The notes under the pieces: generated by a model
The model's database searches: none
The model's input: the letters and a program-made list of their open reading frames with translations, nothing else
Told to the model about the DNA's origin: nothing
From: an uncultured Candidatus Saccharibacteria bacterium
GTDB taxonomy: Bacteria; Patescibacteriota; Minisyncoccia; Phycocordibacterales; JAKFXT01
Length of the DNA stretch: 64,000 nt
Assembly: GCA_964385825.1 (NCBI GenBank)
Contig: CAYLPX010000001.1
Span: 173,797-237,796, forward strand
Reading direction: 5' to 3'
Position numbers and translations under genes: made by a program
Shown: positions 4,542 through 31,684 of the stretch, in pieces
How the letters are laid out: each line of letters begins with the position of its first letter
Numbering within the stretch: position 1 is the stretch's first letter

Positions 4542-4568
4542 AATACGTTGTCGCTAGTATATCAAAAG

Positions 4569-11654: not shown

Positions 11655-14600
11655 TTATTGGATAGCAGAAGACGTAGCTACTGGCGCAATATCTCCTAGA
11701 GCTGGAGCAGTTGAAGTAGCACTAAGATCAGTAGCTGCACTACTTGTTGCAGTACTTGTTCCCATATCTAGAACGATATCAGTGGAAGTTGCAGTTGAAG
11801 TTCCGATATCAAGGACTGGTGGACTTATAGGATTCTCTGGTGGAGCAACATAGATAGTACTTGTTGAAATACTAGCTGGTTGGCAAGAGCCACTAGTTGT
11901 CTCTACTGTCCCATTGTTCACCATCACACAGTATGGAGCTTTTGTTGTTTTATCAAAGAGTGTTATTCCAGCAGGCGAAGTACTGCTTCCCACAGTGAGT
12001 GAGTCTACCGCTGCATTTGCAATGTGTACTAACCCATCACTAACAAAGATACCAAAGGAGCTAAGTGCTGTTTTTAGTGTAGTGAGTGAGAATGGATTGT
12101 TACTATTCTCCGCTACAAAGAGTGAGGAGCTAGCATTCTCAAGGTTAAGGAGTCTAGCATCAAGCTCTTGTACACTCTTAGCAAGTACCGCAGTCATTTC
12201 TTCATAGCGAACTCCACGTGGGGTAATACCGTCATTTTCATAGAAGACAAGACGTGGATCAAGCGCATTCACTTCCTCGGCTATAAAACCAACACGAGCC
12301 TGATTCTCATCATTAGTTTCAAAGCTCACTGGGCGCAGTTGCCGGAGTAGTGCTAAGCCAGAAGTTGCTGTCAAAGATTCTATGTTGTGCTTGTAGCGAG
12401 CAGAAGATACGGTACAGGTTGGTGAACCAGTGTTTACCTGCACTTCCTTTGTTGTAGAGTCTATACAAAGAGCATCTTTAGTTCCCGCTTCAGCGGTGAG
12501 GCCGTTAACTGCCATAGTTCCGGTTACTGACAACGTCTTCCATGGTGAAGTACTTCCAATACCTACATATCCAGCTGGGCTCCATGTTTCGAGTGTTGTT
12601 GTTCCTGAATTACTGAAAGTAGTATCAGATGAAGTTCCCATATAGAGGTACCCACCTGATGAGCGATAGAACCAATGCTTAGCGTTTGTGCCCGCTGCTG
12701 TATCGGTAAGTACTAACTGGATAGCGTTACTTGCCGCCGAGGAGGAAGTGGCAAGTTGCATACGCCACTGTGGAGTTGAAGAGCCAAAGCCAGTTGCCTG
12801 TGTACCAAGGTTGTTAAGAGTGGTTCCAGGCGTAAGCGCTTGAAATATAGCGCCATCAGCACGTAATTGGAACCAATGGCTTCCAGATCCATTTTGGTAG
12901 GAAATGGGAGCTACTCCATTTGGAGTTATGAGAACGTTAGCTGCTCCACCAATATTTGAAAATGTATGCTGAGTATTAGTTACACTAGTAATAGCGCCTG
13001 TACGAAGGGTACCTGAAACAAGCAGGTTACTTGCCATACTGAGACTATATCCCGGCGTTGGAGTTGTAGTACCTATTCCAAATTCACCGTTACTACTTAT
13101 AGAAAGTGCCGGGATAGTCGAAGTGGAGAACGCATCACTGGAGGTTGCAAGATAGAAATTACCACCAATTGAACGTTGTACCCAGTGCTTAAGATTAGCG
13201 CCAGCTGAAGGGTCAGTAAGTACTAACTGTGGCGCAGTTGATGAAGCGAGTTGCAACATCCAGTTAGGAGTAGTGGTACCAAGACCAAGAGCACCATTCA
13301 TGGTCATGGTGAGGTAGTTGTTGTTTGAGGCATCAGCAATAGCAAGGAGTGGAGCGGTTTGACCACTAAGAGCGGCGATGGAGAGTTTACCAAACGGTGT
13401 AGTGGTACCCACACCAACAAAGCCGTTGCTAGTACTGTTGACGTTAGTAATGCGAAAAACTTCAGCAGCGGTTGATCCACCCTTATCATTACCAATGACG
13501 AAGTCATTAGTTGCCCCAGATGCGCCAACGGTTAAGATTGGTGAACCATTTGCAACTCCTGCACTATTAAAATAATTAATGTTTACCGCACCACTTCCTG
13601 ATGAGTTTCGAGAGATGTTCACAGAGCCAGGGTTAAGGGAGGTGAAAGAGTTTTGTACAGCATTATCTGCAACAATGAGTCCGTTGTTCCCCGTGTTGGT
13701 GCCAATGTTCATACGGTAGTTTGTGTAGTTGGTAGTAGTACCAAGTCCAAGCTGACCACCATTAGTACCGCTTAAGAAGAGTGAGGTTGAGGTACTACTT
13801 AGAGCATCACTACTAGTTCCAAAGTAGAAGTTACCGTTAGCAAAGCGCATCACACCGTGCTTGGCGTTAGTTCCGCCATTTGGATCAGTGAGAGCTAACT
13901 GTGGGGCAGTTGAAGTTGCAAGCTGTAGAAGCCAAGCAGAGGTTGAGGTACCGAAACCAGCATACCCAGCATCAGAGAGTCTGAAGAGGGTTGTCGAAGC
14001 GTTGTTCACTACTTCAATAGTGGATGAAGCTCCTGTTCCCCTGCCCCACACCGTAAGACGAGCATAGGGAGAAGTAGTCCCAATACCAATACCGGTGTTA
14101 CGAGCCACGGAACTTGCGTATGGTGTTGCCTCTCCATATACCGTAAGTACAGGATTGTCTCCAATAGACGCAGTGTAGGACTGTGGCGTACCTGTAGCAG
14201 CACTGACTATCGGGAGATTAGTCCACTGTACTACTCCAGCATCATCGTCAAAGGACTGTGTTCCGGAAATCAAACTTCCGGCATAGGTCTCTCCCGTTGA
14301 ATAATTGTACGTTAGTGCCCCATCACCAACATTAAGGCCGCCACGTAGTGTGGTTGTTGAAGTTGTGGCAGTAGCGAAGAAAACATCAGCCGATGAAGTA
14401 CCCGTAACTGAAAGGTTAGTCCAAGGTGATGTGGTTCCTACCCCTACATAACCGCTACTGTTTACCATTATTGCTGGAACGGTTGAGGTAGCATACGCAT
14501 CACTTGAGGTTGCAAGGTAGAAGTTACCACCGGCAACACGCTGTACCCAATGCTTAAGGTTAGTCCCTGCTCCGGAATCAGTAAGCGCCAACTGTGGGGC

Positions 14601-17600
14601 GGTCGATGAAGCGAGTTGTACCATCCAGTTAGGTGTAGTGGTGCCAAGTCCGAGGGCTCCTGAGGGAAGGAACTGGAGCAGTGCTTGATTGCTAGAACCA
14701 CCAATTGCAAAGAGTGGGGCGGTTTCTCCAGAATTTGCTTTGACTGAAAGGTGCGCCCATGGAGTTGAGGAGGCAAGTCCTAATGCACCGTTATGCGTAT
14801 CGTTGGCATTGTAGAAGCGAGCAATTTCTGTACCCACTTGATTACTACCTTGATCGTTAGTGAACTGAAGATCTGAGCTTGAGGTGGGGAGTATAATTGT
14901 AGCTCTTGAACTATTTCCTGTTTTTAAGATAAGTCCCATATTACCAACTACATCTGTTGCTCTAGCTATCGTAATACCATTACCACCTGAACCAGTTGTT
15001 GGGGCGAAGTTAATATAGTTACTGGTGCTATTAATATCAGTAAACTGCATGGAATCTCCCGAAAAACGGGTTTTTACTTCAAAAGCTCCCGTAGGGTTCA
15101 CTGTACCGATACCAACTGCGGTGGTTGAAGCGATGGTGAATAAGGTTGTGGTTGCATTCAATGCATCTGATGAAGTGCCGATATAGAAGTTGCCATTAGC
15201 AAAGCGGATGATACCGTGTTTGGCGTTGGTGCCACCGTTAGGGTCTGTGAGGGCGAGTTGGGGTGCAGTTGATGAAGCGAGTTGGAGAAGCCAAGCAGGG
15301 GTTGAAGTGCCAATACCAAGCGCTTTCTTACTGTTATCCCAGAAGAAATTGGTAGCGTCTCCTGCAAAAGAAGTACTGTTTGCGAATTGCACAGCACCAC
15401 TACCACCAGCAGCGTTAGTAGAACCATTTGTTGAAAGACAAGTTCCATTTACGGAGAAGCATCCAGAAGTGATCTGTATACCGTTAGTATAGGTGCTTGT
15501 GGCATTACTGGTGACATTAAGGGCACTTGTAAAGGTAGTTGATGAACCAGTGAGGGTGAAGTAGCTACTGGTTGCAGAGAGGGCGTCGGAAGAAGTACCG
15601 ATAGCAAAGACACCATTTGTGTTAGTGAGGATCCAGTGTTTGGCGTTAGTGGAGGCATCAGTGTCAGTGATGGCTACATAAGGAGTAGCTGAGGCAACTT
15701 GGAGTGACCAAGCAGGAGTGGTAGTGCCGAGGCCGAGGTTACCTACTGAAGTAAGAGTGAGGTAGTTAATTGAGGCTGAAGAAGATCCTACAGCAAAGAG
15801 TGGGGCGGTTTGTCCTGCACCGCCCGTAACAGAGAGCTTAGCCCAAGGGGTTGAAGAGCCAATACCAACGAAGCCGTTCGTTGCAAGACTGGTAGTGTTC
15901 ATGATGCGGAGGGTTTCGTCTCCCGCTGAAGTACCTCCACGGTCATTAAGGAAACGGAGATCACGTCCTGAAGCAAGTGTTGCAGCGGCTAGTACTTCAA
16001 AGCCACCTCCAGTGCCTCCCACTCCATTGTCATTTAGGTAGATACCCATTGCACTCTGGCTGACTGTTGCTCGGTTAACTACAATACCGCCAACACCATT
16101 ACCATCTGGGACTCCAAAGCGGGCATAGTTATTAGGATTACCGTCTTTACCTTGTACATTAATACCGCCTAATACACTTAAGTAAGTACCACCACTTGTG
16201 ACTGGCCCAGCCGTTAAATTAGTAGTGGTGCCGATACCTACTCCACCGAACTTGTTGATAGTGACATAGGTAGTTGTTGAAGTTAATGCATCGCTGCTTG
16301 TTCCGATATAGAAGTTACCATTAGCAAAGCGGATGATGCCATGTTTAGCGTCAGTGCCTCCATTTGGATCCGTGAGCGCAAGTTGTGGAGCGGTTGAGGA
16401 AGCAAGTTGAAGGAGCCAATTAGGAGTGGTGGTACCGATACCCACAGTGACACCGTAGACAGTGCCGACACCACCTAAAACAATAGCATTTGATTTGTTG
16501 ACGATTGCACCGGCACCGATTGCCGTTGAGTAATTAAGGTTACTTACCCCCGCATCTGATTGTGCACCGAGATAAGTATTGTAAATACCAGTATCGTTTA
16601 CCCGTCCACTCCAAGCACCAAGAGCAGTAGTTGAAGCCCCTGCGGTTTGGTTAAGCAGTGCATTCCAACCAACAGCAACTGATGCAGCGGCAGCTTGGTT
16701 TGAGTATAGAGCCCCATTACCAAAGGCGGTGTTAAAAGAACCTGTATTGTTTGCAAGAGCGGTGCCACCTACGGCAGTGTTGTTCTGTCCTGTTTGGTTA
16801 ACATACAAGGCAAGTGAACCAATAGCTACGTTGTTCACACCACTTGTATTAAATACAAGTGCACTTGATCCAACTACTGTATTATTTGTTCCTGTAGTAT
16901 TTGAATAAAGCGCCTCCCAGCCAAGAGCAGTGTTATCAGTTCCTGTGGTATTCCCTTGCATAGACTGATATCCGATTGCAGTATTGTTTCTAAAGTTTCC
17001 TGCATTATTTTCGTTTCTCGTACTTGTTCCTGCACCAAGCCCTAAGTAAAGAGAAGTTCCCGTTGCGGTTAAAAGTGGATTACCACCAAAGTAGAGCCAT
17101 GAATTCTTGTCAGTGGTAGTAGCAATATTAAGATTACCGGTAACGGTGAGGTTGGTAGCAAAGGTAGAAGTACCTTGGGTAAGGGTGAAGAGTGTTGAGG
17201 TACTACTTAATGCATCACTACTCGTTCCAAAGTAGAAGTTACCGTTAGCAAAGCGGATGATACCGTGTTTGGCGTTGGTGCCACCATTGGGGTCAGTGAG
17301 GGCGAGTTGGGGGGCAGTTGAGGAAGCAAGTTGAAGGAGCCAATTAGGAGTGGTGGTGCCAAGTCCGAGAGTTCCTTGTGTGTTGTTGTAGAAGAAATTG
17401 TTGGAGCCAGTAAGAGAATTAGTGCCATTCCAGAAGGTGACTTGGCCAGAAGAACCTGAGCCTGTGGTGCCATTTGTTGGAAGACAAGTATTATTAACTG
17501 CAAAACATCCTCCTGAAAGATTAATACCGTTCGCTGCAGTTGATGTTGCTGATCCAGTTAGATTGAGGGCGAAAATATTAACGCCTCCTGAAAAAGTAGA

Positions 17601-20600
17601 TGTTCCTGATCCTGCTAAATAGACAGTATTATCTTGTCCCTGGAAGAAGAAATTACCAGAAACAATAGTAGACTGAAGTCTTGTTGTGGTTCCATTTCCA
17701 CTCACAGTAAAATTACTTCCCACATTAAATGAACCAGTAGTGGTTCCATTACCATTTACAAAGGTATTACCTTCAACTGAGAGACGTGAGGTTGGGGTGG
17801 TAGAACCAATACCAACAAGGCCATTAGCGTTGATGGAGAAGGCGGACATAGAGGAAGTGGCAAAGGTAGAGGCACTAGAGGTAGCTAGATAGAAGAGTCC
17901 TCCTGCATTACGGAATGACCAGTGGTTAGTGGTAATAGAGGTTGGGTCAGTGAGGGTGAGTTGTGGAGCAGTACCGGTGGCGAGTTGGAGGAGCCAATTA
18001 GGAGTAGTAGAGCCAAAGCCTGAATATCCATCAGTCATAGTGAGGATGGTATTTGCTTCGGTGTTACCAACAAGACCACTAGGAAGTAGCTGAAAAACTA
18101 GTTTGTTTAGGCCACCAGCGGCAACATCGTACGCAATCATGGCTTTCTTTGTTGTCCCCTCTGCAAATACTAATGCACTATTAAATGAGTTGGCTGTTGC
18201 GGAATCATTTTGGAGATAGAAGAATGGTCCAACGTTTCCACCAGGACGAGCTAAGGTAAGTGTGTTGCCATTAATAATATCATCTGAAGAATTGTTATTT
18301 GCATTACCAAGTCTAAAACCACCCGCTACATCTAACTGGAAGGTTGGGGTATTAACTCCAATACCTACTAATCCATTAGCGGTTACAGAGAGTACGTTAG
18401 TGGTTGAAGTAGCAAAGGTACTAGGAGAAGCAGTAGCTATAGCGAAGGTATTACCTACTGAGCGGAAGGTGAAGTGATTGGAGGTGAGGGAGCCGTCGGA
18501 GAGTGCTAGCTGTGGGGCGGTACCGGTGGCGAGTTGTGTCAACCAACGAGAAGTAGTAGTACCTATACCGAAGTTGCCACCTGCGGTGATACGCATGCGT
18601 TCGGTATTGTTGGTACCGAGGAAAAAGTCGTTAGCAAGTGGGGTGCGCACAAAACCGACAGCACCAGCAAGTGCACCAGTGCCATTGAAAGTACCAAGTT
18701 CTACTTCTCCACCTGAACCAGTTGAATGCACCACGATCTGATCGGTTGAAGCTCCACCTGCTCCTCCATAGAAAGCAGCAATGGCTCCTCCGTTTTGGAG
18801 TGAACTTACCGTTCCTCCATTGGCTGTTGCAACGAACGTAGCGGTTGAGGGGAATACTTGTGAACCGATAGCAACACGGCCAGTGTTGTCTACAAAGAGT
18901 CCTGGGGCTCCGGTTGAGAGGGCTACGTTAAGGAGTCCGCCATTGTTAAGGGTTGAACCGGTATCTTGAATAGTTAAGCGCGATGATGGTGAAGTTGAGC
19001 CGATACCGACATTTCCTCCTGCTCTACCATTTATTGTTAAGTAAGTAGAGGTGGCTGAAAGCGCATCAGTAGATGAACCAAAGTAGAAGTTACCGTTGGC
19101 GAAGCGCATGATACCGTGTTTAGCATCGGTTGCTCCATTAGGGTCGGTGAGGGCGAGTTGGGGGGCGGTGCTGGATGCTAACTGTAGACTCCAAGCAGGA
19201 GTAGTGGTACCAAGGCCGAGGGCTCCTTTGTTGGTGTCATAGAAGAAGTTGTTAGAGCCAGCGAGAGCTGTAGTACCAGAGAAGAAAGTCACTTGTCCAG
19301 CAGCACCACTACCAGTGAAGTTAGAGCCTCCTACACAGGTGTTGTTAACCGTGACACAACCTGCAGCTAGAGTAAGTCCATTCGCGAAGGTACTAGTAGC
19401 TGCTCCAGTCACAGTAAGTGCTCCAACACTAAGACCAGAAGAGAATGTAGAGGTTGCTATATAGTTTAAGAAAATATTTGGCCCGGGAGTTGATCCTGAA
19501 ATTGAAAGTTGTCCACCAGTAATAGCAAGTGCTCCTGAAAGAGTTGTGGAAGTTCCACTACCAGAAACGGTAAGGGTATTTCCCACATTAAATGAACCAG
19601 TAGTAGTACCGTTACCATTTACAAAGGTATTACCTTCTACTGAAAGACGTGAGGTCGGAGTAGTAGAGCCGATGCCAAGGAAACCATTACTGGTAATGGT
19701 AAGGGCGGCCATGGTTGAAGTAGCAAGCGTTGAGGGAGAGGCTGTAGCAATATAGAAGTTACTACCTATTGAGCGGAACGTAAAATGATTAGAAGTTAAA
19801 GTTCCATCAGAGAGTGCCAACTGAGGAGCAGTAGAAGAAGCCACTTGTAGTGCAAAACGAGGAGTAGAAGTACCAATACCTACATTACCGCGGCTATTTC
19901 CAAGAAGTACATTTCCAGACCAGCCCGTTCCACCACCAATACCACCGTTAAGTACAATGTTGGCACCATTCACATTGGTAGCTCCACCATTTCCAGCAGT
20001 TAGTGTAATAGAGCCTCCAGTTCCAGTTCCATTTCCAGCTCCCCCACTTATAGTAAGGTTTCCTGCATTAGCATCAGCTGAGCCACCTCCAGTTGAGATA
20101 GTTAGTGCGCCACCATTACCCCCACTTCCACCAGCTCCACTGCTAAGAGAAAGACCTCCTCCCGTTCCTGCAGAGTTGGAGCCGGTAAGTGAGATGCTTG
20201 AGCCTGAGCCAAGTGAAGCACCAGAAGAAAGTGATACTGTTCCACCACTACCTGTTTGTGGAGTATTAGCTCCTCCTTGGATACTAACCGTACCCGGTGT
20301 TCCGCTTCCACCAACTGCACCGGACGCAATAGTGATAGCACCACTTGCCAAATTTCCTCCTGGGGCCCCACTTGTTATAGAGATAGCACCACCTGCGCCT
20401 GATGAACCACCGTTACCTGATGTAAACGACAAAGCTCCACCGTTCTGTGAGCCGTTTCCTACTCCTGCATTTATAGCAACATTACCCCCTCGTCCACTCG
20501 AGCCACCAGCTCCTGCTGCCAGAGTTAGTGTTCCGCCCGCCCCAGCTCCATTTCCAATACCAGTTTGTAGCGTAACCCCACCCCCTGCTGAACCAGCACT

Positions 20601-23600
20601 ACCTCCAGTTCCACCTTGTACATATAGAGCAAGTGGAGCATCTCCTGCAGGAGGTGTCTGCCCTACTACTGAGAAAAGTGCGGAAGGCGAAGTAGAACCT
20701 ATTCCAAAGAAACCAGTTTGTTTATCAACCGTTAATGCTAGTGCTGAAGAAGTTCCAACCGTAAAGAAGGAGCTAAATGATGGAGTTGAACTTCCGACTG
20801 CAAAGATACCGGCAATGGTGGAAGTTGCAGTTGTTGAAGTCGCGGTGAAGCTTTCGGCAACTACCGCTCCAGCAACAGAGAGTTTGGCATAAGGAGAAGA
20901 TGTTCCGATACCGAGGCGCTTGTTAGTATTGTCCCAGAAGAAAGTAGTACTGTCGCCACCAAATGTTCCACCTCCATTATTGAATTGCACCGCTCCTGGA
21001 TTATCAGCCACACCACTACCTGCTCCGCCAATACAAGTTCCGTTATAGGCATAACAGCCGGAAGCAATATTTATACCCTGAGCAAAAGTTGAGGTAGCGC
21101 TTCCGGTTATATTAAGTGCCAATGCCTGTAGTCCACTACTAATAGTGGTAGTCGCTCCACCGGTAACTGTTAAGGTATCGGTTGAAAGATTAGTAGTTGT
21201 CGCGCTTGAGCCGGTTGCATTAACGAAAGTGAAGTTCTGAAGCGTTGATGAGCCGGTAGCTAAGAAGTTCGCAGAGGTAAGTAACGAATTGATAAATGAA
21301 TTAGTGGCAGTGAAAGAAGTAGCGAAGAGATTAGTACTTGTTGCTTCAGTGCTCGTAGTTTTACCAAAGAGTGCAGTGCCGATATTGGCAATTGTTGCAA
21401 AAAGATTTGTGGAAGAAGCGGTGGTTGCAAAACTATTAGTAGTGGTAGCAGCTGAACCAGTGGCATTGATGAAAGTGAAGTTCTGAAGTGTTGAAGAGCC
21501 GGTAGCAAGGAAGTTGGTGGTGGTGGCACTTGTTATAGTAACTCTTCCTATAGTAAGAAGCTTTGCTGTATTGTCCCACGTAAAAGTACTATCCCCTCCA
21601 AGAACCCCACTATTATTGAACTGAACATTCCCATTCGCGCCTCCTGCACTCACGCCCCCGCTTCCGGCAACACAGGTTCCATTAATAGAGAAACAACCTG
21701 ATGCAATGGAAAGTCCATTTCCAAAGGTACTAGTACCGGCTCCTGTTACATTAAGCGCTGTTGTTTGTACTCCACCACCAAAGGTTGTTGTTGCATTCCC
21801 CGTAACCGTTAATGTTCCTGTTGATAGGTTGGTGGTCGTTGCATTTGATCCAGTAGCATTCACAAAAGTGAAGTTCTGAAGGGTTGATGAACCAGTTGCT
21901 AGGAAGTTGGTGGTGGTAGCAAAGGTGAAGAGTGCTGAAGAAGCAGAGAATAGACCCGTATTTGGATTAAATGTAAAACCTGATGAACCAGCTAGAGTGT
22001 TAGACCCAGTAAAGTAAGAAATTTGGTTAGCAATACCGCTTCCACTCACTGAACCATTACCGATACAGACTCCATTTATAGAGTAGCAACCAGTGGCTAA
22101 ATTAATTCCATTTGCAAAAGTACTGGTAGCTGCCCCAGTAACATTGAGTGCCGCTGTATTAATACCTGAAGTAAATGTGCTTGTTGCACTACCTGAGACT
22201 GTGAGTGTGGTCCCAACATTAAAGGCGCCAGTTGTTGTTGCGTTACTGCCAGTTGCATTAATGAAGGTGAAGTTTTGGAGTGTTGAAGAAGAAAGTGTCA
22301 AAAGCTGACCAAAACTTGAAACAGCTGAAGTGGTGGTTGCTGTAAAGTAACCAGCGACAGCTTCCCCTGCTACAGAAAGACGTGCATACGGAGATGAAGT
22401 CCCGATACCAAGATTTCCGTTTATGTATATGTTACCTTGCACTTCAAGTTTAGCAAGAGATGAAGTTGCTGATGCACCAATTAGCACCTGATTAGAAGTG
22501 GTTGCAACTGAAATGCCTGATCCATTAAAGAATGTCCAGTTAACGTCTGTTCCTGATCCCCCGGAACCGGAAGTGTCATTTCCACAAATAATGTTTCCAT
22601 TACTATCAGTAGTGAGTTTCCCTCCATTATTAAATAGTGTGCAATTCGCCGAACTAAGCGCTAGCCCACCAGAACTTATACGAAGACCATTGGCGATAGT
22701 TGAAGTAGCGCTTCCCGTGATGTCCAAGGCTGCTGCTGAAATACCTGAAGCAAATGTACTAGTAGCGCTTCCAGTAACTGTAAGTACTCCAGTTGAGAAA
22801 TTAGTAGTGGTAGCAGCGCTACCGGTTGCATTAACAAAAGTAAAGTTTTGAAGTGTTGAAGAACCAGTAGCTAGGAAGTTTGCGGAAGTGAGTAGTGAGT
22901 TAATGAACGCATTAGTTCCAACAAGGGTGGAAGCAAAGAGTGTTGTACTCGTACTATTGGTAGTAGTTGCATTTACCGCAGTGAAATTCTGGAGTGTTGA
23001 ACTTCCCGAAAGGAGGAGGTTAGCGAGGCTAAATGAGTTTGCAAACAAATTAGTAAAGGTTCCGCTAGTTGCAAAAAATGAAGTCGCTGTTGCATTAGTT
23101 GTAGTTGAATCGAGTCCAGTAAAGTTTTGCAAAGTGCTTGATCCTGCTGTTAGGAAGTTAGAAACAGTGAGCGATCCCAAATTACTATTTCCTGCCGTAA
23201 GTGTTGTTGCAAAGAGATTTGTAGAAGATGCAGTAGTTGCAAAACTATTAGTAGTGGTAGCAGCTGAACCAGTGGCATTAATGAAAGTGAAGTTCTGAAG
23301 GGTTGATGAGCCAGTTGCTAGGAAGTTGGTGGTGGTCGCGAAAGTGAAGAGTGCTGATGGAGAGGTGAGCAAACTAGTACCGCTATTAAACGTGAAAGCA
23401 GCAACACCTCCAAAGGCCCCATTATTGTTAAATTGAACTTGTGTATTGGCTCCACCAGGAGTTCCACTACCACCGGTTGCTGAAAGACAGGTTCCATTAA
23501 CTGAGAAACAACCTGAAGCAATGTTGATACCTTGAGCAAAGGTGCTGGTTCCTGAACCAGTCACATTGAGTGCGGCTGTTTGTAAGCCTCCGGCAAAACT

Positions 23601-25343
23601 AGAAGTTGCAGATGTTGTAGCTGTAAAGAAAGAGCCAACTATTTCACCAAGCACTGAAAGTGGTGCATACGGAGAAGAAGTTCCGATACCAAGATTTCCA
23701 TTTATGTAGGTGTTACCTTGCACTTCAAGTTTAGCGAGAGATGAAGTCGCTGATGCACCAACAACAATTTGATTAGATGTTGTGCCAAGACGGATACCAC
23801 TTCCATTAAAGAAGAGCCAGTTACTTTCTATCCCGGTACCTCCCGCATCAACTCCGCAAAGTACATCACCTCCAGTATTTGTATATAACTTTCCACAATC
23901 AGTTAACGATGAGAATGTAAGGCCACCCGCAAAAGAGGAAGTGGCTGTAGCATCAGTTATGTTAATGGTTCCACTAAAACTACTGTTAGTAATTGTGGCT
24001 CCAGAAATCCGTGCCGTATCAATTGTGACGTTAGTAAGTTTATCTATTCGGTTTGCAGCTGATGCCACTGGATAAAAACTAGGTGCAGCATTGTACTGAC
24101 CGGTTGTCTGAGCGGAGAGGGCATTAATTGAAAGATAGATTTTGTCCTGGAGGGTTTTTAGCTTCTGATCGACCGCATCACTAGTTACACCTCCTGTTTC
24201 AATAATCCTTTCAATAATTCTTGGGGAAGCTGTGGTACTCAGCGCCTTAACTACAGGAGTTTCGTTTTGCACCACAGCTGGTGTAACTACCTTAGGTACT
24301 GAAGCAATAATTTTTGTGCTTGTGGCTACCACAGGCACAGCAGGATTCTTTGTGCTTGAAGATGATGTGGCAACAGTAACACTAGAAGTAGTAACAGCGA
24401 GTTCTTTTGGTAGCTCATCTGAAGTTGCCAAATTTGGTGTGGAATTAGATACCGGTGGAGTTGTAGTCTTGGACTTAACAAAGGCAACAAACCTATTGCG
24501 CAACCCACCAAAACCAAGGGAAAGCACATCAAAAATGCTAGATGACCCTTCCTTAACTGAAGCGAGATTGAGTACCCCCTCCGTAATCTCGGATGAGCGA
24601 GAACCCCCAGAAACCGTTGCTACATGTGGGTTCTCGCCACCCTGTGTGGAAAGACCGAGGGCCAAGCTTCCGAAAACAACTAATACTGCAACCGCGAGGG
24701 CTGTAGCTTTTTTCTGGAGCTCAGCAAAGAAAATATTTTTTGACGAGCTTGAAGTTTCTAAAACTTTCGATGGCATCACGCGACGAGATGCAGGTCCAAA
24801 ATCTTTTCCTTTGAACTCAACACCTTTGCTAACTTTCTTTTTAAGTTCAGGGATTAAACTTTTTTCAAAATCTGGAAGGTATGCAAAAAAAGGTGAACGC
24901 CCAGTTGAAGCTACGGGAGTTGTACTTACCCTTTCGAAATTTTTCGAAACCTTTTCTTCTACCAAAACTGGAGACGCGACTGGAGGGTGCGCGATAGCTA
25001 CTTTTGGCTCAGACTTGATAGCCGGGATATTTACCGCAGCTGTTGCTGCAGTTTCAACATTAAAACTTGGTGAACTTGGAAGTGATTGTGTTGCCTCCTT
25101 TTTAATATTTTTAGAAACCGAGGCGACGGCTGCATACCCGTTAATTGTTTTTGAGAGGGCAGCATCTTTTTGATACTGAAGCAAAGCCTCAAGATCAACG
25201 TACCAACTACGACCAACCATTTGGGCCGGAATTTTATTCCCGCGACAAAGTTGTCCGATGTAGTCAGAAGTATACCCAGTTGCAGTTTTTGCATCCTTGG
25301 CGGAGATGAATTTTTTACCCTCTAAAATTAGGTCCGACGACAT
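11655..25343 (-). CDS. Giant (4562 aa) membrane-anchored surface fibre/adhesin with N-terminal HTH_17-like domain, single TM helix, long Ser/Thr/Gly-rich beta-helix repeats, and a Peptidase S74 (tail-fibre intramolecular chaperone) domain near the C-terminus
   Basis: Single uninterrupted ORF. N-terminus FISAKDAAKATGYTSDYIGQLCRGNKIPAQMVGRSWYVDLEAL. TM helix about aa 214-232. Repeated modules (TTTPNWLLQLASSTAPQLALTDPNGGTNAKHGIIRFANGNFYFGTSSDALS at least 6x; NTAIG..AL..NTTG..NTAVG fibre repeats; Gly-rich GGxGGxxG repeats). Near the C-terminus: SSARYKHNI...LRPVSFETNDEN...GFIAEEVNALDPRLV...GVRYEEM. Confidence 0.9.
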   Translation of the reverse strand: MSSDLILEGKKFISAKDAKTATGYTSDYIGQLCRGNKIPAQMVGRSWYVDLEALLQYQKDAALSKTINGYAAVASVSKNIKKEATQSLPSSPSFNVETAATAAVNIPAIKSEPKVAIAHPPVASPVLVEEKVSKNFERVSTTPVASTGRSPFFAYLPDFEKSLIPELKKKVSKGVEFKGKDFGPASRRVMPSKVLETSSSSKNIFFAELQKKATALAVAVLVVFGSLALGLSTQGGENPHVATVSGGSRSSEITEGVLNLASVKEGSSSIFDVLSLGFGGLRNRFVAFVKSKTTTPPVSNSTPNLATSDELPKELAVTTSSVTVATSSSSTKNPAVPVVATSTKIIASVPKVVTPAVVQNETPVVKALSTTASPRIIERIIETGGVTSDAVDQKLKTLQDKIYLSINALSAQTTGQYNAAPSFYPVASAANRIDKLTNVTIDTARISGATITNSSFSGTINITDATATSSFAGGLTFSSLTDCGKLYTNTGGDVLCGVDAGGTGIESNWLFFNGSGIRLGTTSNQIVVGASATSSLAKLEVQGNTYINGNLGIGTSSPYAPLSVLGEIVGSFFTATTSATSSFAGGLQTAALNVTGSGTSTFAQGINIASGCFSVNGTCLSATGGSGTPGGANTQVQFNNNGAFGGVAAFTFNSGTSLLTSPSALFTFATTTNFLATGSSTLQNFTFINATGSAATTTNSFATTASSTNLFATTLTAGNSNLGSLTVSNFLTAGSSTLQNFTGLDSTTTNATATSFFATSGTFTNLFANSFSLANLLLSGSSTLQNFTAVNATTTNSTSTTLFASTLVGTNAFINSLLTSANFLATGSSTLQNFTFVNATGSAATTTNFSTGVLTVTGSATSTFASGISAAALDITGSATSTIANGLRISSGGLALSSANCTLFNNGGKLTTDSNGNIICGNDTSGSGGSGTDVNWTFFNGSGISVATTSNQVLIGASATSSLAKLEVQGNIYINGNLGIGTSSPYARLSVAGEAVAGYFTATTTSAVSSFGQLLTLSSSTLQNFTFINATGSNATTTGAFNVGTTLTVSGSATSTFTSGINTAALNVTGAATSTFANGINLATGCYSINGVCIGNGSVSGSGIANQISYFTGSNTLAGSSGFTFNPNTGLFSASSALFTFATTTNFLATGSSTLQNFTFVNATGSNATTTNLSTGTLTVTGNATTTFGGGVQTTALNVTGAGTSTFGNGLSIASGCFSINGTCVAGSGGVSAGGANGNVQFNNSGVLGGDSTFTWDNTAKLLTIGRVTITSATTTNFLATGSSTLQNFTFINATGSAATTTNSFATTASSTNLFATIANIGTALFGKTTSTEATSTNLFATSFTATNSFINSLLTSANFLATGSSTLQNFTFVNATGSSATTTNLSTDTLTVTGGATTTISSGLQALALNITGSATSTFAQGINIASGCYAYNGTCIGGAGSGVADNPGAVQFNNGGGTFGGDSTTFFWDNTNKRLGIGTSSPYAKLSVAGAVVAESFTATSTTATSTIAGIFAVGSSTPSFSSFFTVGTSSALALTVDKQTGFFGIGSTSPSALFSVVGQTPPAGDAPLALYVQGGTGGSAGSAGGGVTLQTGIGNGAGAGGTLTLAAGAGGSSGRGGNVAINAGVGNGSQNGGALSFTSGNGGSSGAGGAISITSGAPGGNLASGAITIASGAVGGSGTPGTVSIQGGANTPQTGSGGTVSLSSGASLGSGSSISLTGSNSAGTGGGLSLSSGAGGSGGNGGALTISTGGGSADANAGNLTISGGAGNGTGTGGSITLTAGNGGATNVNGANIVLNGGIGGGTGWSGNVLLGNSRGNVGIGTSTPRFALQVASSTAPQLALSDGTLTSNHFTFRSIGSNFYIATASPSTLATSTMAALTITSNGFLGIGSTTPTSRLSVEGNTFVNGNGTTTGSFNVGNTLTVSGSGTSTTLSGALAITGGQLSISGSTPGPNIFLNYIATSTFSSGLSVGALTVTGAATSTFANGLTLAAGCVTVNNTCVGGSNFTGSGAAGQVTFFSGTTALAGSNNFFYDTNKGALGLGTTTPAWSLQLASSTAPQLALTDPNGATDAKHGIMRFANGNFYFGSSTDALSATSTYLTINGRAGGNVGIGSTSPSSRLTIQDTGSTLNNGGLLNVALSTGAPGLFVDNTGRVAIGSQVFPSTATFVATANGGTVSSLQNGGAIAAFYGGAGGASTDQIVVHSTGSGGEVELGTFNGTGALAGAVGFVRTPLANDFFLGTNNTERMRITAGGNFGIGTTTSRWLTQLATGTAPQLALSDGSLTSNHFTFRSVGNTFAIATASPSTFATSTTNVLSVTANGLVGIGVNTPTFQLDVAGGFRLGNANNNSSDDIINGNTLTLARPGGNVGPFFYLQNDSATANSFNSALVFAEGTTKKAMIAYDVAAGGLNKLVFQLLPSGLVGNTEANTILTMTDGYSGFGSTTPNWLLQLATGTAPQLTLTDPTSITTNHWSFRNAGGLFYLATSSASTFATSSMSAFSINANGLVGIGSTTPTSRLSVEGNTFVNGNGTTTGSFNVGSNFTVSGNGTTTRLQSTIVSGNFFFQGQDNTVYLAGSGTSTFSGGVNIFALNLTGSATSTAANGINLSGGCFAVNNTCLPTNGTTGSGSSGQVTFWNGTNSLTGSNNFFYNNTQGTLGLGTTTPNWLLQLASSTAPQLALTDPNGGTNAKHGIIRFANGNFYFGTSSDALSSTSTLFTLTQGTSTFATNLTVTGNLNIATTTDKNSWLYFGGNPLLTATGTSLYLGLGAGTSTRNENNAGNFRNNTAIGYQSMQGNTTGTDNTALGWEALYSNTTGTNNTVVGSSALVFNTSGVNNVAIGSLALYVNQTGQNNTAVGGTALANNTGSFNTAFGNGALYSNQAAAASVAVGWNALLNQTAGASTTALGAWSGRVNDTGIYNTYLGAQSDAGVSNLNYSTAIGAGAIVNKSNAIVLGGVGTVYGVTVGIGTTTPNWLLQLASSTAPQLALTDPNGGTDAKHGIIRFANGNFYIGTSSDALTSTTTYVTINKFGGVGIGTTTNLTAGPVTSGGTYLSVLGGINVQGKDGNPNNYARFGVPDGNGVGGIVVNRATVSQSAMGIYLNDNGVGGTGGGFEVLAAATLASGRDLRFLNDRGGTSAGDETLRIMNTTSLATNGFVGIGSSTPWAKLSVTGGAGQTAPLFAVGSSSASINYLTLTSVGNLGLGTTTPAWSLQVASATPYVAITDTDASTNAKHWILTNTNGVFAIGTSSDALSATSSYFTLTGSSTTFTSALNVTSNATSTYTNGIQITSGCFSVNGTCLSTNGSTNAAGGSGAVQFANSTSFAGDATNFFWDNSKKALGIGTSTPAWLLQLASSTAPQLALTDPNGGTNAKHGIIRFANGNFYIGTSSDALNATTTLFTIASTTAVGIGTVNPTGAFEVKTRFSGDSMQFTDINSTSNYINFAPTTGSGGNGITIARATDVVGNMGLILKTGNSSRATIILPTSSSDLQFTNDQGSNQVGTEIARFYNANDTHNGALGLASSTPWAHLSVKANSGETAPLFAIGGSSNQALLQFLPSGALGLGTTTPNWMVQLASSTAPQLALTDSGAGTNLKHWVQRVAGGNFYLATSSDAYATSTVPAIMVNSSGYVGVGTTSPWTNLSVTGTSSADVFFATATTSTTTLRGGLNVGDGALTYNYSTGETYAGSLISGTQSFDDDAGVVQWTNLPIVSAATGTPQSYTASIGDNPVLTVYGEATPYASSVARNTGIGIGTTSPYARLTVWGRGTGASSTIEVVNNASTTLFRLSDAGYAGFGTSTSAWLLQLATSTAPQLALTDPNGGTNAKHGVMRFANGNFYFGTSSDALSSTSTSLFLSGTNGGQLGLGTTTNYTNYRMNIGTNTGNNGLIVADNAVQNSFTSLNPGSVNISRNSSGSGAVNINYFNSAGVANGSPILTVGASGATNDFVIGNDKGGSTAAEVFRITNVNSTSNGFVGVGTTTPFGKLSIAALSGQTAPLLAIADASNNNYLTMTMNGALGLGTTTPNWMLQLASSTAPQLVLTDPSAGANLKHWVQRSIGGNFYLATSSDAFSTSTIPALSISSNGEFGIGTTTPTPGYSLSMASNLLVSGTLRTGAITSVTNTQHTFSNIGGAANVLITPNGVAPISYQNGSGSHWFQLRADGAIFQALTPGTTLNNLGTQATGFGSSTPQWRMQLATSSSAASNAIQLVLTDTAAGTNAKHWFYRSSGGYLYMGTSSDTTFSNSGTTTLETWSPAGYVGIGSTSPWKTLSVTGTMAVNGLTAEAGTKDALCIDSTTKEVQVNTGSPTCTVSSARYKHNIESLTATSGLALLRQLRPVSFETNDENQARVGFIAEEVNALDPRLVFYENDGITPRGVRYEEMTAVLAKSVQELDARLLNLENASSSLFVAENSNNPFSLTTLKTALSSFGIFVSDGLVHIANAAVDSLTVGSSTSPAGITLFDKTTKAPYCVMVNNGTVETTSGSCQPASISTSTIYVAPPENPISPPVLDIGTSTATSTDIVLDMGTSTATSSAATDLSATSTAPALGDIAPVATSSAIQ
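12138..12407 (-). other. Peptidase S74 / intramolecular chaperone auto-processing domain inside the giant gene (about 250 aa before its C-terminus)
   Basis: Minus-strand translation of 12381-12407 gives SSARYKHNI, matching the S-x-x-R-x-K catalytic Ser/Lys spacing of endosialidase-type tail-spike chaperones. Downstream block LRPVSFETNDENQARVGFIAEEVNALDPRLVFYENDGITPRGVRYEEMTAVL. Confidence 0.65.
25193..25316 (-). other. Excisionase/MerR-like HTH_17 motif at N-terminus of the giant protein
   Basis: Pattern a.k.tGyt.dyigqLcr.nkipa..vGrsWyvdleaL resembles PF12728-type HTH by eye. Assessed from memory of the family consensus only. Confidence 0.4.
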
Positions 25344-31595: not shown

Positions 31596-31684
31596 AACTT
31601 CATTGTATGTGAGTACCTCCAAAAACAGAAGTTCACAGGAGGGTCTCTTCCGAAAACCCACCTTTTCTGGTATGGTAAGAACTT

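What the first reader, a model, noticed from the sequence alone, without database searches (positions are those of the whole stretch)
11655..25343. 4562-aa membrane-anchored giant fibre protein carrying a phage tail-fibre Peptidase-S74 intramolecular-chaperone domain and an N-terminal excisionase-like HTH
One uninterrupted 13.7-kb ORF. It has a roughly 210-aa N-terminal cytoplasmic region beginning with an HTH_17/excisionase-like motif (FISAKDAAKATGYTSDYIGQLCRGNKIPAQMVGRSWYVDLEAL), then one TM helix (aa 214-232). Next come about 4000 aa of Ser/Thr/Gly/Asn-rich repeats. These include at least 6 copies of a roughly 50-aa module (TTTPNWLLQLASSTAPQLALTDPNGGTNAKHGIIRFANGNFYFGTSSDALS), NTAxG..AL..NTTG beta-helix fibre repeats like those of phage tail fibres and YadA-like heads, and Gly-rich GGxGG tracts. 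About 250 aa from the C-terminus sits a block with the endosialidase-type S74 auto-chaperone signature (SSARYKHNI...LRPVSFETNDEN...GFIAEEVNALDPRLV...GVRYEEM; Ser and Lys spaced as in the S/K catalytic dyad). In phage tail spikes this domain drives trimer folding and then self-cleaves. That implies the cell-surface fibre is a trimeric beta-helix matured by autoproteolysis and releasing a roughly 250-aa C-terminal fragment. The cytoplasmic HTH on a surface fibre is unusual and may be a membrane-proximal anchoring or regulatory module. A three-LamG lectin gene follows immediately on the same strand.
Basis: partly seen in the sequence, partly recalled or inferred. Interest (0 to 1): 0.75.

Follow-up and report, generated by a model that had tools for sequence, protein, structure and literature searches.

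The report
Giant membrane-anchored tail-fibre-like surface fibre
A tiny, probably host-dependent bacterium of the Patescibacteria (CPR) group encodes a 4562-residue cell-surface fibre built from the same parts as phage tail fibres and the prey-grabbing fibres of Bdellovibrio, but rooted in its own membrane behind a cytoplasmic DNA-binding-type domain. It is a strong candidate for how such cells recognise their partners.

Summary

New points:
- The repeat module occurs 12 times, not 6. Its profile matches the crystal structure of the Bdellovibrio MAT fibre Bd2133 (8OND, E 1.3e-11), and 25 MAT-type capping-loop motifs are present. The stalk is therefore a MAT/tail-fibre-type trimeric beta-helix.
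- The YadA-like claim found no support.
- The HTH-TM anchor is a very large family (6586 clusters at 50% identity). All 80 best genomic loci are Patescibacteria. Many head ORFs of 2000 to over 3390 aa with MAT modules, and three also carry S74.
- The fibre diverges much faster than its neighbour: 42% against 91% for BipA.

Best reading: an N-in, membrane-anchored trimeric adhesion fibre, folded from its C-terminal S74 chaperone and matured by self-cleavage. It is a new variant of a known kind. The role of the HTH is open.

The parts
11655..25343 (-). Whole ORF: 4562 aa plus stop, about 456 kDa
   Evidence: The exact protein is on record at NCBI.
25164..25316 (-). aa 10-60: cytoplasmic excisionase/MerR-type winged-helix (HTH_17-like) domain
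24708..25163 (-). aa 61-212: basic (pI 9.9), low-complexity cytoplasmic linker
   Evidence: Poorly conserved among homologues.
24648..24707 (-). aa 213-232: the single transmembrane helix (signal anchor, N-in)
   Evidence: It is the only Kyte-Doolittle 19-residue window above 2.0. KK precedes it. Homologues have a TM helix at a similar distance from the N-terminus.
24054..24647 (-). aa 233-430: Ser/Thr/Pro/Val-rich juxtamembrane spacer ending in a short heptad-like stretch
   Evidence: Read directly from the sequence. Its role as a wall-spanning spacer is an inference.
20724..24053 (-). aa 431-1540: proximal fibre half with eight SSTLQNFT units, GC..N..C loops and three GIGTSSPYA.L capping-loop motifs
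   Evidence: No Pfam hit.
19932..20723 (-). aa 1541-1804: Gly-rich (up to 33% G) GGxGG tract
   Evidence: A similar tract occurs in relative P0046.
12510..19931 (-). aa 1805-4278: array of 12 MAT-type beta-helix modules (GxGTTTPxWxxQLASSTAPQLALTD...) with interspersed capping loops
   Evidence: A profile of the modules hits PDB 8OND Bd2133 at E 1.3e-11 (47.6 bits), and more weakly 8OML, 8OJN and 8OL4.
16476..16985 (-). aa 2787-2956: ten 17-residue NTAxGxxALxxNTxGxx repeats inserted between modules 5 and 6
   Evidence: No Pfam or PDB match.
12408..12509 (-). aa 4279-4312: distal tip segment with the Cys4293/Cys4310 pair, immediately before the predicted cleavage site
   Evidence: Conserved in all 25 aligned homologues (C22 of alignment A1 is nearly invariant).
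12084..12407 (-). aa 4313-4420: Peptidase_S74 intramolecular chaperone / autoprotease domain with motif S4313-S-A-R-Y-K4318
   Evidence: Pfam E 2.8e-9 / 2.2e-10. S and K are invariant and R4337 (LRPV) nearly invariant. A PDB profile search hits the tail fibres 6F45 (E 8.5e-8) and 8JOV (E 2.8e-6), the latter aligning SSaRFK with SDERLK. AF2 pLDDT is 90-96.
11658..12083 (-). aa 4421-4562: post-S74 extension with helices, a small beta module bracketed by Cys4472/Cys4487, and a disordered Ser/Thr/Pro/Ala tail
   Evidence: The same module follows a different, non-S74 domain in L015 (read directly); P0046 ends in what looks like a related form, and both comparisons were made by eye.
9462..11645 (-). 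Downstream gene, 9 nt after the fibre stop: 727-aa protein with three Laminin_G_3 (concanavalin-like lectin) domains and a probable signal peptide
   Evidence: Pfam E 3e-76. The hydrophobic N-terminus is read by eye as a signal peptide. LamG genes also follow HTH-fibre ORFs in L024, L031 and L059.

Best explanation
The gene encodes a cell-surface adhesion fibre of a Patescibacteria (CPR) bacterium. It is the CPR counterpart of the Bdellovibrio MAT (mosaic adhesive trimeric) fibres and of phage tail fibres.

Proposed mechanism, step by step:
1. The protein is inserted N-in by its single TM helix. The roughly 210-aa N-terminal region with the excisionase-type winged helix stays in the cytoplasm, and about 4330 residues are exported. 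(Inferred from hydropathy, the KK flank, the absence of a signal peptide, and the Cys pattern.)
2. Three chains are registered and folded from the C-terminal end by the S74 intramolecular chaperone into an intertwined triple beta-helix. This consists of 12 MAT-type modules with 25 capping loops, interrupted by Gly-rich and 17-residue-repeat segments. (Homology is shown; trimerisation is inferred from the solved homologues.)
3. Once the trimer is formed, Ser4313/Lys4318 cut the chain before Ser4313. This frees a 250-aa, 26-kDa C-terminal fragment and exposes the Cys-bridged tip. (The motif is shown; cleavage is inferred.)
4. The mature fibre would be very roughly 150-270 nm long, scaling from Bd2133 and Bd3182. 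It projects from a cell of similar size and binds a surface structure of a partner or host cell, probably together with the co-transcribed secreted three-LamG lectin. (Inferred.)
5. The cytoplasmic HTH is the family's standard anchor module. Trimerisation outside the cell brings three copies together inside. Its own activity, whether DNA binding, tethering or signalling, is unknown.
For: - S74 domain above the Pfam cut-off, with invariant S and K.
- The repeat-module profile matches the crystal structure of the trimeric beta-helix of Bd2133 at E 1.3e-11, and three further MAT structures weakly.
- The MAT paper shows experimentally that such proteins are surface-exposed trimeric fibres. It shows that the S74 type (SDxxxK) self-cleaves at the Ser, and it reports a capping-loop consensus V-G-G/N-pi-x-x-P-x-x-x-L that my looser G[IVLF]G..-P-x-x-x-L pattern resembles (PMC10769870). 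That looser pattern occurs 25 times here.
- The last 560 aa align with phage tail-fibre proteins well beyond the S74 domain (Synechococcus phage S-B28, 71% of the query, E 2e-19).
- Topology: one TM helix. All 22 Cys beyond the TM helix form 11 close pairs (7-19 residues apart), while the N-terminal region has a single Cys in the invariant QLCR motif. The fibre part is acidic and the cytoplasmic part basic.
- Cellular, not viral: flanked by BipA, TGT, UvrB, UvrA, topoisomerase I, SerRS and ParB. BipA-fibre synteny is kept in L005, L034 and L064.
- The architecture recurs. Among the 80 best HTH loci, all Patescibacteria, 22 HTH-ORFs carry MAT modules and 3 also carry S74, including complete 2494- and 2697-aa proteins.
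- Fast divergence typical of interaction proteins: 42.5% identity to the L005 orthologue against 91% for the neighbouring BipA.
- LamG partners recur downstream.
Against: - There are no experimental data for this protein or any CPR homologue. Trimerisation, cleavage, surface exposure and host binding are all inferred.
- The organism's lifestyle and host are unknown, and the genome itself is not among the GTDB representatives searched.
- S74 is followed by about 140 residues, including a conserved module that would be lost on cleavage. This is awkward if the tip is the adhesin.
- The proximal half (aa 431-1800) matches no known family.
- The fold search on the C-terminal model was not significant (3GW6 was the top hit, E 0.7).
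- The defining N-terminal domain of Bdellovibrio MATs is absent.
- The first 2498 aa rest on a single assembly.
Confidence: 0.65

Rival explanations
1. Contact-sensing or chromosome-tethering device. The cytoplasmic winged helix would be a working DNA-binding domain. The fibre then acts as a membrane-tethered one-component regulator (ToxR/CadC-like, or released by proteolysis as in Notch or MYRF), or as a nucleoid-to-envelope tether (RacA-like), and so couples what the fibre touches to gene expression or DNA handling. Adhesion would be only half of the function.
For: - The fold matches DNA-binding Xis, MerR, BldC and RacA domains.
- Relatives pass the HTH_17 and TIGR01764 cut-offs.
- The domain is strongly conserved (84% identity to L005) while the fibre has diverged to about 42%.
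- Most family members are basic, with pI 8.6-10.1.
- The family is very large, and it includes short HTH-TM-small-ectodomain proteins that look like one-component sensors.
- MYRF is a precedent for a DNA-binding domain and an S74 domain in one membrane protein (PMC3742443).
Against: - Here S74 lies on the other side of the membrane from the HTH, so it cannot release it as in MYRF.
- This copy of the domain is nearly neutral (pI 7.8).
- No target DNA, protease site or regulated genes are known.
- Winged helices of this type also serve as protein-binding modules (CbpM and DafA are among the fold hits).
- A purely structural anchoring role explains the data equally well.
Confidence: 0.15
2. Structural envelope or matrix protein. 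The fibre would form a protective or spacing coat, like the fibrous surface layer seen on Vampirococcus, or mediate cell-cell cohesion among kin, rather than recognise a specific host.
For: - CPR cells with giant membrane proteins show a thick fibrous coat (PMC8080830).
- The Ser/Thr/Gly/Asn-rich composition is low in complexity and repetitive.
- No recognisable ligand-binding tip domain was found.
Against: - The closest solved homologues are prey-binding adhesins and phage receptor-binding fibres.
- Very fast divergence between close relatives and the linked lectin gene fit recognition better than bulk structure.
Confidence: 0.12
3. Phage or prophage tail-fibre gene, or a recent viral transfer that is not used by the cell.
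For: The S74 domain and modules are shared with phage tail fibres. NCBI names relatives 'tail fiber domain-containing protein'.
Against: - There are no phage genes around it. The flanks are housekeeping genes, and the position next to BipA is conserved in three related genomes.
- The N-terminal TM anchor and cytoplasmic domain do not fit a virion protein.
- PHROGs gives no structural hit for the fibre.
Confidence: 0.03
4. Delivery system for a released C-terminal effector. S74 cleavage would liberate the 26-kDa fragment, with its conserved Cys-bracketed module and variable tail, as the active product. The fibre would be only the carrier.
For: - The post-S74 extension is conserved as a module but variable in its tail. 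It is an Ig-like PF16403 domain in P0014 and P0026, and by eye in L064; it is Pro/Thr-rich in others.
- The same module follows a different pre-domain in L015, and P0046 appears to carry a related form.
Against: No toxin or enzyme domain was detected. The tail is predicted to be disordered. In every characterised S74 protein the released part is a spent chaperone (PMC10769870, PMC3742443).
Confidence: 0.05

Closest known systems
Bdellovibrio bacteriovorus MAT (mosaic adhesive trimeric) fibre family, S74 subgroup (e.g. Bd3182; structures 8OND Bd2133, 8OML, 8OJN, 8OL4; Caulton et al. 2024, PMC10769870)
   Same: Both are cellular, not viral, surface fibres. The repeat modules are homologous to the solved triple beta-helix (profile E 1.3e-11). 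A capping-loop-like motif recurs, resembling the published consensus. Both have a C-terminal S74 domain with the S-x-x-x-x-K dyad. Both belong to bacteria that live on other bacteria.
   Different: This protein is 4562 aa against roughly 1000 aa. MATs have a signal peptide followed by a conserved ~130-aa beta-rich surface-binding domain; this protein has a cytoplasmic HTH, a linker and a TM anchor. The envelope is a CPR one. There are extra Gly-rich, 17-residue-repeat and SSTLQNFT segments, and about 140 residues follow S74.
Phage tail fibres and tailspikes with a C-terminal intramolecular chaperone (K1F endosialidase 3GW6, T5 pb1 4UW8, S16 gp37 6F45, Synechococcus phage S-B28 tail fibre)
   Same: S74 domain and catalytic dyad. 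Similarity extends into the preceding fibre modules. The polarity is the same: N-terminus at the particle or cell, C-terminus distal.
   Different: The gene lies in a housekeeping chromosomal context rather than a phage. The protein is anchored by a TM helix, not by a virion-attachment domain. It is about ten times longer.
MYRF / MrfA membrane-bound transcription factors (PMC3742443)
   Same: One polypeptide combines a DNA-binding-type domain, a TM helix and an S74 (ICA) domain that trimerises the chain.
   Different: The domain order differs. In MYRF the DNA-binding and S74 domains lie on the same, cytosolic side, so cleavage frees the transcription factor. Here the membrane and about 4000 residues separate them. 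The DNA-binding folds are unrelated (Ndt80-like against excisionase-type winged helix).
Giant membrane proteins of CPR bacteria (e.g. Vampirococcus lugosii, 1392-4163 aa; PMC8080830)
   Same: They share the size class, the predicted membrane location and a presumed role in host attachment.
   Different: The domains reported there are WD40, PKD, integrin, fibronectin and DUF11. No S74/MAT modules or HTH anchor are described.
Excisionase/MerR-type winged-helix proteins (Pfam HTH_17, TIGR01764; Xis, BldC, RacA, TraN)
   Different: The known members are soluble DNA-binding proteins. This family is fused to a linker, a TM helix and an extracellular part, and no DNA binding is known.

Membership tests
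Peptidase_S74 / C-terminal intramolecular chaperone domain (CIMCD, ICA) | Match to the family profile above the curated threshold | tested here: met
   PF13884 at 37.6 and 41.1 bits against a cut-off of 22. A PDB profile search hits the tail fibres 6F45 and 8JOV.
Peptidase_S74 / C-terminal intramolecular chaperone domain (CIMCD, ICA) | Catalytic Ser and Lys five residues apart (S-D/S-x-x-x-K) | tested here: met
   S4313-S-A-R-Y-K4318. Both residues are invariant in 25 sequences. The motif aligns with SDERLK of 8JOV. R4337 in LRPV is nearly invariant.
Peptidase_S74 / C-terminal intramolecular chaperone domain (CIMCD, ICA) | Trimerisation-dependent self-cleavage at the Ser | not testable with these tools
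   Needs expression of aa ~4000-4562 with and without S4313A, as was done for Bd3182 (PMC10769870).
Peptidase_S74 / C-terminal intramolecular chaperone domain (CIMCD, ICA) | Fold of the chaperone domain | tested here: inconclusive
   The AF2 core has pLDDT 90-96. Foldseek on the whole 291-aa model gives 3GW6 as top hit, but at only E 0.7 and probability 0.25.
Bdellovibrio MAT fibre family | Triple beta-helix modules with the capping-loop motif | tested here: met
   The module profile hits 8OND at E 1.3e-11. There are 25 matches to my looser capping-loop pattern, which resembles the published consensus. This is homology by sequence; the trimeric state itself was not tested.
Bdellovibrio MAT fibre family | Signal peptide followed by the conserved ~130-aa beta-rich N-terminal domain | tested here: not met
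   Residues 1-232 are HTH, linker and TM helix, and 233-430 are low complexity. No direct comparison with a Bd N-terminal domain sequence was possible.
Bdellovibrio MAT fibre family | Exposure on the cell surface and binding to prey or host | not testable with these tools
   Needs microscopy or binding assays.
HTH_17 / excisionase-family DNA-binding domain | Match to the family profile above the curated threshold | tested here: not met
   13.5-16.8 bits against 27 for this protein. Relatives found with the family profile at E<=1e-40 do pass (28-43 bits), so membership is by transitive homology.
HTH_17 / excisionase-family DNA-binding domain | Winged-helix fold (two-strand N-terminal hairpin, two helices, two-strand wing, C-terminal helix) | tested here: met
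HTH_17 / excisionase-family DNA-binding domain | DNA binding | not testable with these tools
   The domain has pI 7.8 here and 7.9-10.1 (most 8.6 or above) in relatives. EMSA is needed.
Trimeric autotransporter adhesins (YadA-like head) | YadA_head / Hep_Hag repeats and a C-terminal beta-barrel anchor | tested here: not met
   No Pfam hit at E<=1 for any segment. No PDB hit for aa 2741-2970. The repeat period is 17 residues, and the C-terminus is a disordered Ser/Thr/Pro tail.
MYRF-type membrane-bound transcription factor | DNA-binding domain and S74 domain on the same side of the membrane, so that cleavage frees the DNA-binding domain | tested here: not met
   The order here is HTH, TM, fibre, S74.
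Phage tail fibre (virion component) | Encoded within a phage or prophage structural module | tested here: not met
   The neighbours are housekeeping genes and the synteny is conserved.

The most novel reading that the evidence does not exclude
The HTH-TM module, present in thousands of protein clusters whose best genomic matches are all Patescibacteria, could be a functional DNA-binding domain. These fibres and their short relatives would then be membrane-tethered transducers. Trimerisation or load on a fibre up to a few hundred nm long outside the cell would cluster or release three winged helices inside. That would link contact with a host cell directly to transcription or to nucleoid and DNA handling. 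It would be a bacterial analogue of MYRF or Notch logic, built from tail-fibre parts.
Probability: 0.15. Interest if true: 0.85.

Novelty: new variant of a known kind. Interest (0 to 1): 0.6.

Why it matters
How ultrasmall Patescibacteria find and hold their partners is largely unknown beyond type IV pili. This locus shows that they carry homologues of the prey-recognition fibres of Bdellovibrio and of phage receptor-binding fibres. These homologues are enlarged up to 4.5 times and rooted directly in the membrane. That gives concrete, fast-evolving candidate host-range determinants to test, along with a linked lectin.

It also brings out a very large, apparently undescribed family of membrane-anchored excisionase-type winged-helix proteins (6586 clusters at 50% identity). 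All 80 best genomic loci for this family are Patescibacteria genomes. Its function is open and could be regulatory.

On the practical side, short-read assemblies break inside these genes. They are therefore systematically under-represented in metagenome-assembled genomes.

Tried and rejected
- Pfam on ten overlapping 520-aa segments, and NCBIfam and PHROGs on the whole protein: nothing beyond S74 and the weak HTH. About 4000 aa have no family model.
- PDB sequence search with aa 2741-2970, the 'YadA-like' region: no hit at E<=1. The YadA idea is dropped.
- PDB profile search with the HTH alignment: nothing significant. The fold searches were informative instead.
- Exact look-up of the giant protein's encoding contig failed, although the sequence is in the collection.
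- Genome-contig scan with the N-terminal 293 aa: no relative found. The source genome is therefore not a GTDB representative, and the organism is named only through its relatives.
- Word-indexed homology search with the module profile gave only 11 small fragments and was uninformative.
- The Foldseek search on the C-terminal model was not significant.
- Rfam on the window: only three tRNAs.
- The promoter and terminator scan found fewer sites than the shuffled controls, so no conclusion on transcription units can be drawn from it.
- I considered that the 2064-aa cluster members were a short allele. They start 34 nt from a contig end, so they are truncated copies.
- I considered prophage origin and misassembly. 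Both were rejected on context, synteny, independent assemblies and diverged internal repeats.
- Literature searches found no description of S74/MAT fibres or HTH-anchored proteins in CPR. The only mention is a passing 'tail fibre-like protein' next to the pam pilus operon. The library is incomplete, so absence there is not proof.
Full report
**1. The observation.**
Window 11655..25343 holds a single ORF on the minus strand: ATG start, 4562 codons, no internal stop. The protein is about 456 kDa. It is dominated by Thr 15%, Gly 13%, Ser 12%, Ala 11% and Asn 8%.

The exact sequence is on record from NCBI on a 371,929-bp contig. Short-read assemblies from other samples all break inside the gene, but together they cover aa 2499-4562. 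The JGI 2064-aa version differs from the window protein at one residue, and three Logan contigs are 100% identical in DNA over the stretches they share. The 5' half has no second assembly. A sister-species orthologue (L005) is open and collinear for the 1165 residues available before its contig ends. The internal DNA repeats are short (at most 231 nt) and 77-92% identical. I see no sign of an artefact.

**2. The context is cellular.**
- Upstream on the same strand lies BipA/TypA.
- Downstream lie a three-LamG gene (9-nt gap), then TGT, UvrB, a histidine kinase, a response regulator and UvrA.
- Further along are topoisomerase I, SerRS, Dus, DnaX, RelA/SpoT and ParB.
- There are no phage genes. 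The BipA-fibre arrangement is conserved in three related genomes (L005, L034, L064).
- Homologues of both ends of the protein come from Candidatus Paceibacterota and other Patescibacteria.
- The source genome is not among the GTDB representatives, so I can only say it is a Patescibacteria (CPR) bacterium, probably in the Paceibacteria/Parcubacteria part of the group.

**3. Anatomy, N-terminus to C-terminus.**

*aa 10-60, the HTH.* This domain scores below the Pfam HTH_17 threshold (13.5-16.8 against 27 bits).
- A profile of 12 homologues (A2) finds 6586 cluster representatives at E<=0.001 and 4117 at E<=1e-10 among 1.84 billion proteins.
- Members such as P0049, P0057, P0088 and P0046 do pass the HTH_17 cut-off.
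- AlphaFold2 gives a beta-beta-alpha-alpha-beta-beta-alpha domain with core pLDDT about 87.

*aa 61-212.* A basic, poorly conserved linker.

*aa 213-232.* The only strongly hydrophobic stretch in the protein, preceded by KK.

*aa 233-430.* A Ser/Thr/Pro/Val-rich spacer.

*aa 431-1540.* Eight SSTLQNFT units and paired-Cys loops.

*aa 1541-1804.* A Gly-rich tract, up to 33% Gly.

*aa 1805-4278, the module array.* It holds 12 copies of a roughly 110-aa module, GxGTTTPxWxxQLASSTAPQLALTD...H...R...G.FY..TSSD. One insertion of ten 17-residue NTAxG repeats lies at aa 2787-2956.

*aa 4279-4312.* A conserved Cys-bracketed tip.

*aa 4313-4420, the S74 domain.* Pfam E 2.8e-9 on the whole protein and 2.2e-10 on the segment.
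- The motif S4313-S-A-R-Y-K4318 has S and K invariant in 25 aligned homologues.
- It aligns with SDERLK of the solved tail fibre 8JOV.
- The AF2 core has pLDDT 90-96.

*aa 4421-4562, the post-S74 extension.* It has helices, a small three-stranded module bracketed by Cys4472 and Cys4487 (pLDDT 80-88), and a disordered Ser/Thr/Pro/Ala tail.

*Topology from the Cys pattern.* All 22 Cys beyond the TM helix form 11 close pairs. The cytoplasmic part has one Cys, in the invariant QLCR motif. This fits an N-in, C-out topology. There is no LPXTG motif.

**4. What the stalk is.**
No Pfam, NCBIfam or PHROGs model covers the roughly 4000 middle residues. A profile of the 12 modules, however, hits the crystal structure 8OND at E 1.3e-11 (47.6 bits). 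It also hits 8OML, 8OJN and 8OL4 weakly. A profile of the C-terminal homologues hits the same set.

These entries are the Bdellovibrio bacteriovorus MAT (mosaic adhesive trimeric) fibres (PMC10769870). According to that paper:
- They are ~1000-aa proteins exposed on the predator's surface.
- They form intertwined triple beta-helices with capping loops of consensus V-G-G/N-pi-x-x-P-x-x-x-L.
- Thirteen of the 21 end in an S74 domain with an SDxxxK motif.
- Bd3182 cleaves itself at the Ser unless it is mutated.
- At least one binds prey glycans.

A looser capping-loop-like pattern that I wrote occurs 25 times in the giant protein. The last 560 aa also align with phage tail-fibre proteins across the modules as well as S74: Synechococcus phage S-B28, 27.6% identity over 71% of the query, E 2e-19.

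The 'trimeric beta-helix matured by S74' reading therefore now rests on homology to solved, experimentally characterised fibres. The 'YadA-like head' comparison found no support.

**5. The family.**
A scan of one genome per species with the HTH profile confirmed 495 loci. All 80 of the best are Patescibacteria MAGs. The ORFs that begin with the HTH fall into two kinds.
- Short proteins of 210-480 aa: HTH (often two copies), linker, TM helix and a small conserved ectodomain.
- Long ones: 16 of the 80 exceed 2000 aa, and several run past the 10-kb flank (at least 3390 aa).

Twenty-two of the HTH-ORFs hit my module HMM. Three also carry S74 followed by an extension, including the complete proteins L059 (2494 aa) and L064 (2697 aa). 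L064 is the BipA-linked orthologue. LamG genes follow the fibre gene in L024, L031 and L059 as well.

The window protein is therefore the largest complete member I saw of a recurrent architecture. I found no description of this architecture in the searchable literature. CPR papers mention giant membrane proteins with other domains (PMC8080830). A 2026 preprint mentions in passing a 'tail fibre-like protein' next to a pilus operon.

The fibre evolves fast. It shows 42.5% identity to the L005 orthologue over 1165 aa, against 91% for the adjacent BipA and 84% for the HTH itself.

**6. Mechanism (best explanation, confidence 0.65).**
- *Shown:* the domain content, the dyad, homology to MAT and tail-fibre beta-helices, the single TM helix, the Cys pattern, the chromosomal context and recurrence across genomes.
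- *Inferred from the characterised homologues:* the chain inserts N-in. Three chains are registered from the C-terminal S74 chaperone and zip into a triple beta-helix. Ser4313/Lys4318 then cut off a 250-aa, 26-kDa fragment. The mature fibre carries the Cys-bridged tip distally.
- *Length estimate:* scaling from Bd2133 (370 aa, about 145 Å) and Bd3182 (~920 aa, about 550 Å) gives roughly 150-270 nm for aa 431-4312. This is a crude estimate of my own.
- *Function:* adhesion to a partner or host cell, possibly with the secreted three-LamG lectin. This is inferred from the homologues' roles, the divergence rate and the lifestyle generally ascribed to CPR.

**7. Open points.**
1. *What the HTH does.* The strong conservation, the DNA-binding-type fold and the sheer size of the family argue that it is more than a plug. 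The rival and novel reading is a membrane-tethered transducer or nucleoid tether (probability about 0.15). MYRF shows that an S74 domain and a DNA-binding domain can cooperate in one membrane protein. Here, however, they sit on opposite sides of the membrane, so the MYRF mechanism as such is excluded.
2. *The post-S74 extension.* Its Cys-bracketed module is conserved. It also follows a different, non-S74 domain in L015, and P0046 ends in what looks like a related form; both comparisons were made by eye. In some relatives the extension ends in an Ig-like PF16403 domain (P0014 and P0026; L064 by eye). If cleavage occurs, all of this leaves with the chaperone, and I cannot explain why.
3. *The proximal half of the fibre* has no known relatives.

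**8. Verdict.**
The stalk is MAT-type, not YadA-like. The HTH anchor is a family trait, not an oddity. S74 is not terminal.
- Novelty: a new variant of a known kind, namely a MAT/tail-fibre-type adhesin with a new anchor, a new host lineage and exceptional size.
- Interest: 0.6.

Noticed in passing
window 11655-25343 (protein aa 483-4487): All 22 cysteines beyond the TM helix come in 11 close pairs, 7-19 residues apart (e.g. 612/619, 1086/1093, 4293/4310, 4472/4487). The cytoplasmic part has one Cys, inside the invariant QLCR motif of the HTH. The pattern suggests disulfide-stapled loops and supports the N-in/C-out topology.
   Followed up: partly
P0001-P0012, P0042, P0049 and similar; loci L017, L019, L032, L049 and others: The short members of the HTH-TM family (about 210-480 aa, often with two tandem HTH copies) commonly end in a small conserved ectodomain, roughly G(I/V)A(V/I)(V/A)PS...SFSD.V.(V/I).PD..G..G(V/I)ITP(V/E)F....F.YV(L/M)VP(I/V). 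No Pfam model matches it. The family has 6586 clusters at 50% identity and I found no description of it.
   Followed up: partly
L017 15911-19822; L027 12211-16572; L055 5222-9487; L078 12324-18251: In four loci where the HTH-TM ORF itself carries neither motif (213-853 aa), a separate 1300-2000-aa ORF with S74 and/or MAT modules lies within about 6 kb downstream on the same strand. These may be split versions of the fused architecture. I did not test whether this exceeds chance.
   Followed up: no
L015 (3009-aa ORF), P0046 (1692 aa): Some HTH-anchored fibres lack S74. Before the same Cys-bracketed C-terminal module they carry a different conserved domain (..TDLAEIY...PGDV(I/V)......G(V/I)(I/A)(S/T).(N/D)P......YPVAL.GRVPVKVS.ENG.I..GD.L). 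It has no Pfam hit and may be an alternative folding or processing domain.
   Followed up: no
L064 (2697-aa orthologue, C-terminus); P0014, P0026: In P0014 and P0026 the post-S74 extension ends in an Ig-like domain (PF16403 precomputed). The L064 orthologue ends in a similar-looking sequence by eye, instead of the disordered Ser/Thr/Pro tail seen in the window protein.
   Followed up: no
window 13845 (ends of L001 and L002), 11844 (end of L003); L004 starts at aa 2499: Every independent short-read assembly of this strain breaks inside the giant gene, and gene callers then report 490-2064-aa 'proteins' that start at internal Met codons. Giant fibre genes of this kind are likely under-counted and mis-sized in MAG catalogues.
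   Followed up: partly
window 38925-40415 (-) and 30705-31661 (-): A 496-aa protein combines a peptidoglycan-binding domain (PG_binding_1) with a GH18 glycosidase domain. There is also a Peptidase_M23 protein. Both are possible cell-wall-active enzymes, of interest in a host-dependent bacterium.
   Followed up: no
window 3732-6116 (-): A histidine kinase with a 4HB_MCP sensor module and a response regulator with two receiver stretches lie four and five genes downstream of the fibre gene on the same strand (after LamG, TGT and UvrB), and the order is kept in L004. A link to the fibre was not examined.
   Followed up: no
window 12001-24000: GC skew on the plus strand is mostly positive across the giant gene and negative over most other minus-strand genes of the window. 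This probably reflects the Thr/Ser/Ala-rich codon content rather than foreign origin, but I did not test that. GC content is not unusual (0.43-0.48).
   Followed up: partly
10.64898/2026.03.03.709456 (literature): A 2026 preprint on a CPR chaperone-usher-like 'Pam' pilus reports that a 'tail fibre-like protein' is consistently co-located with the pam operon across CPR lineages. Whether that protein belongs to the family described here was not checked.
   Followed up: no
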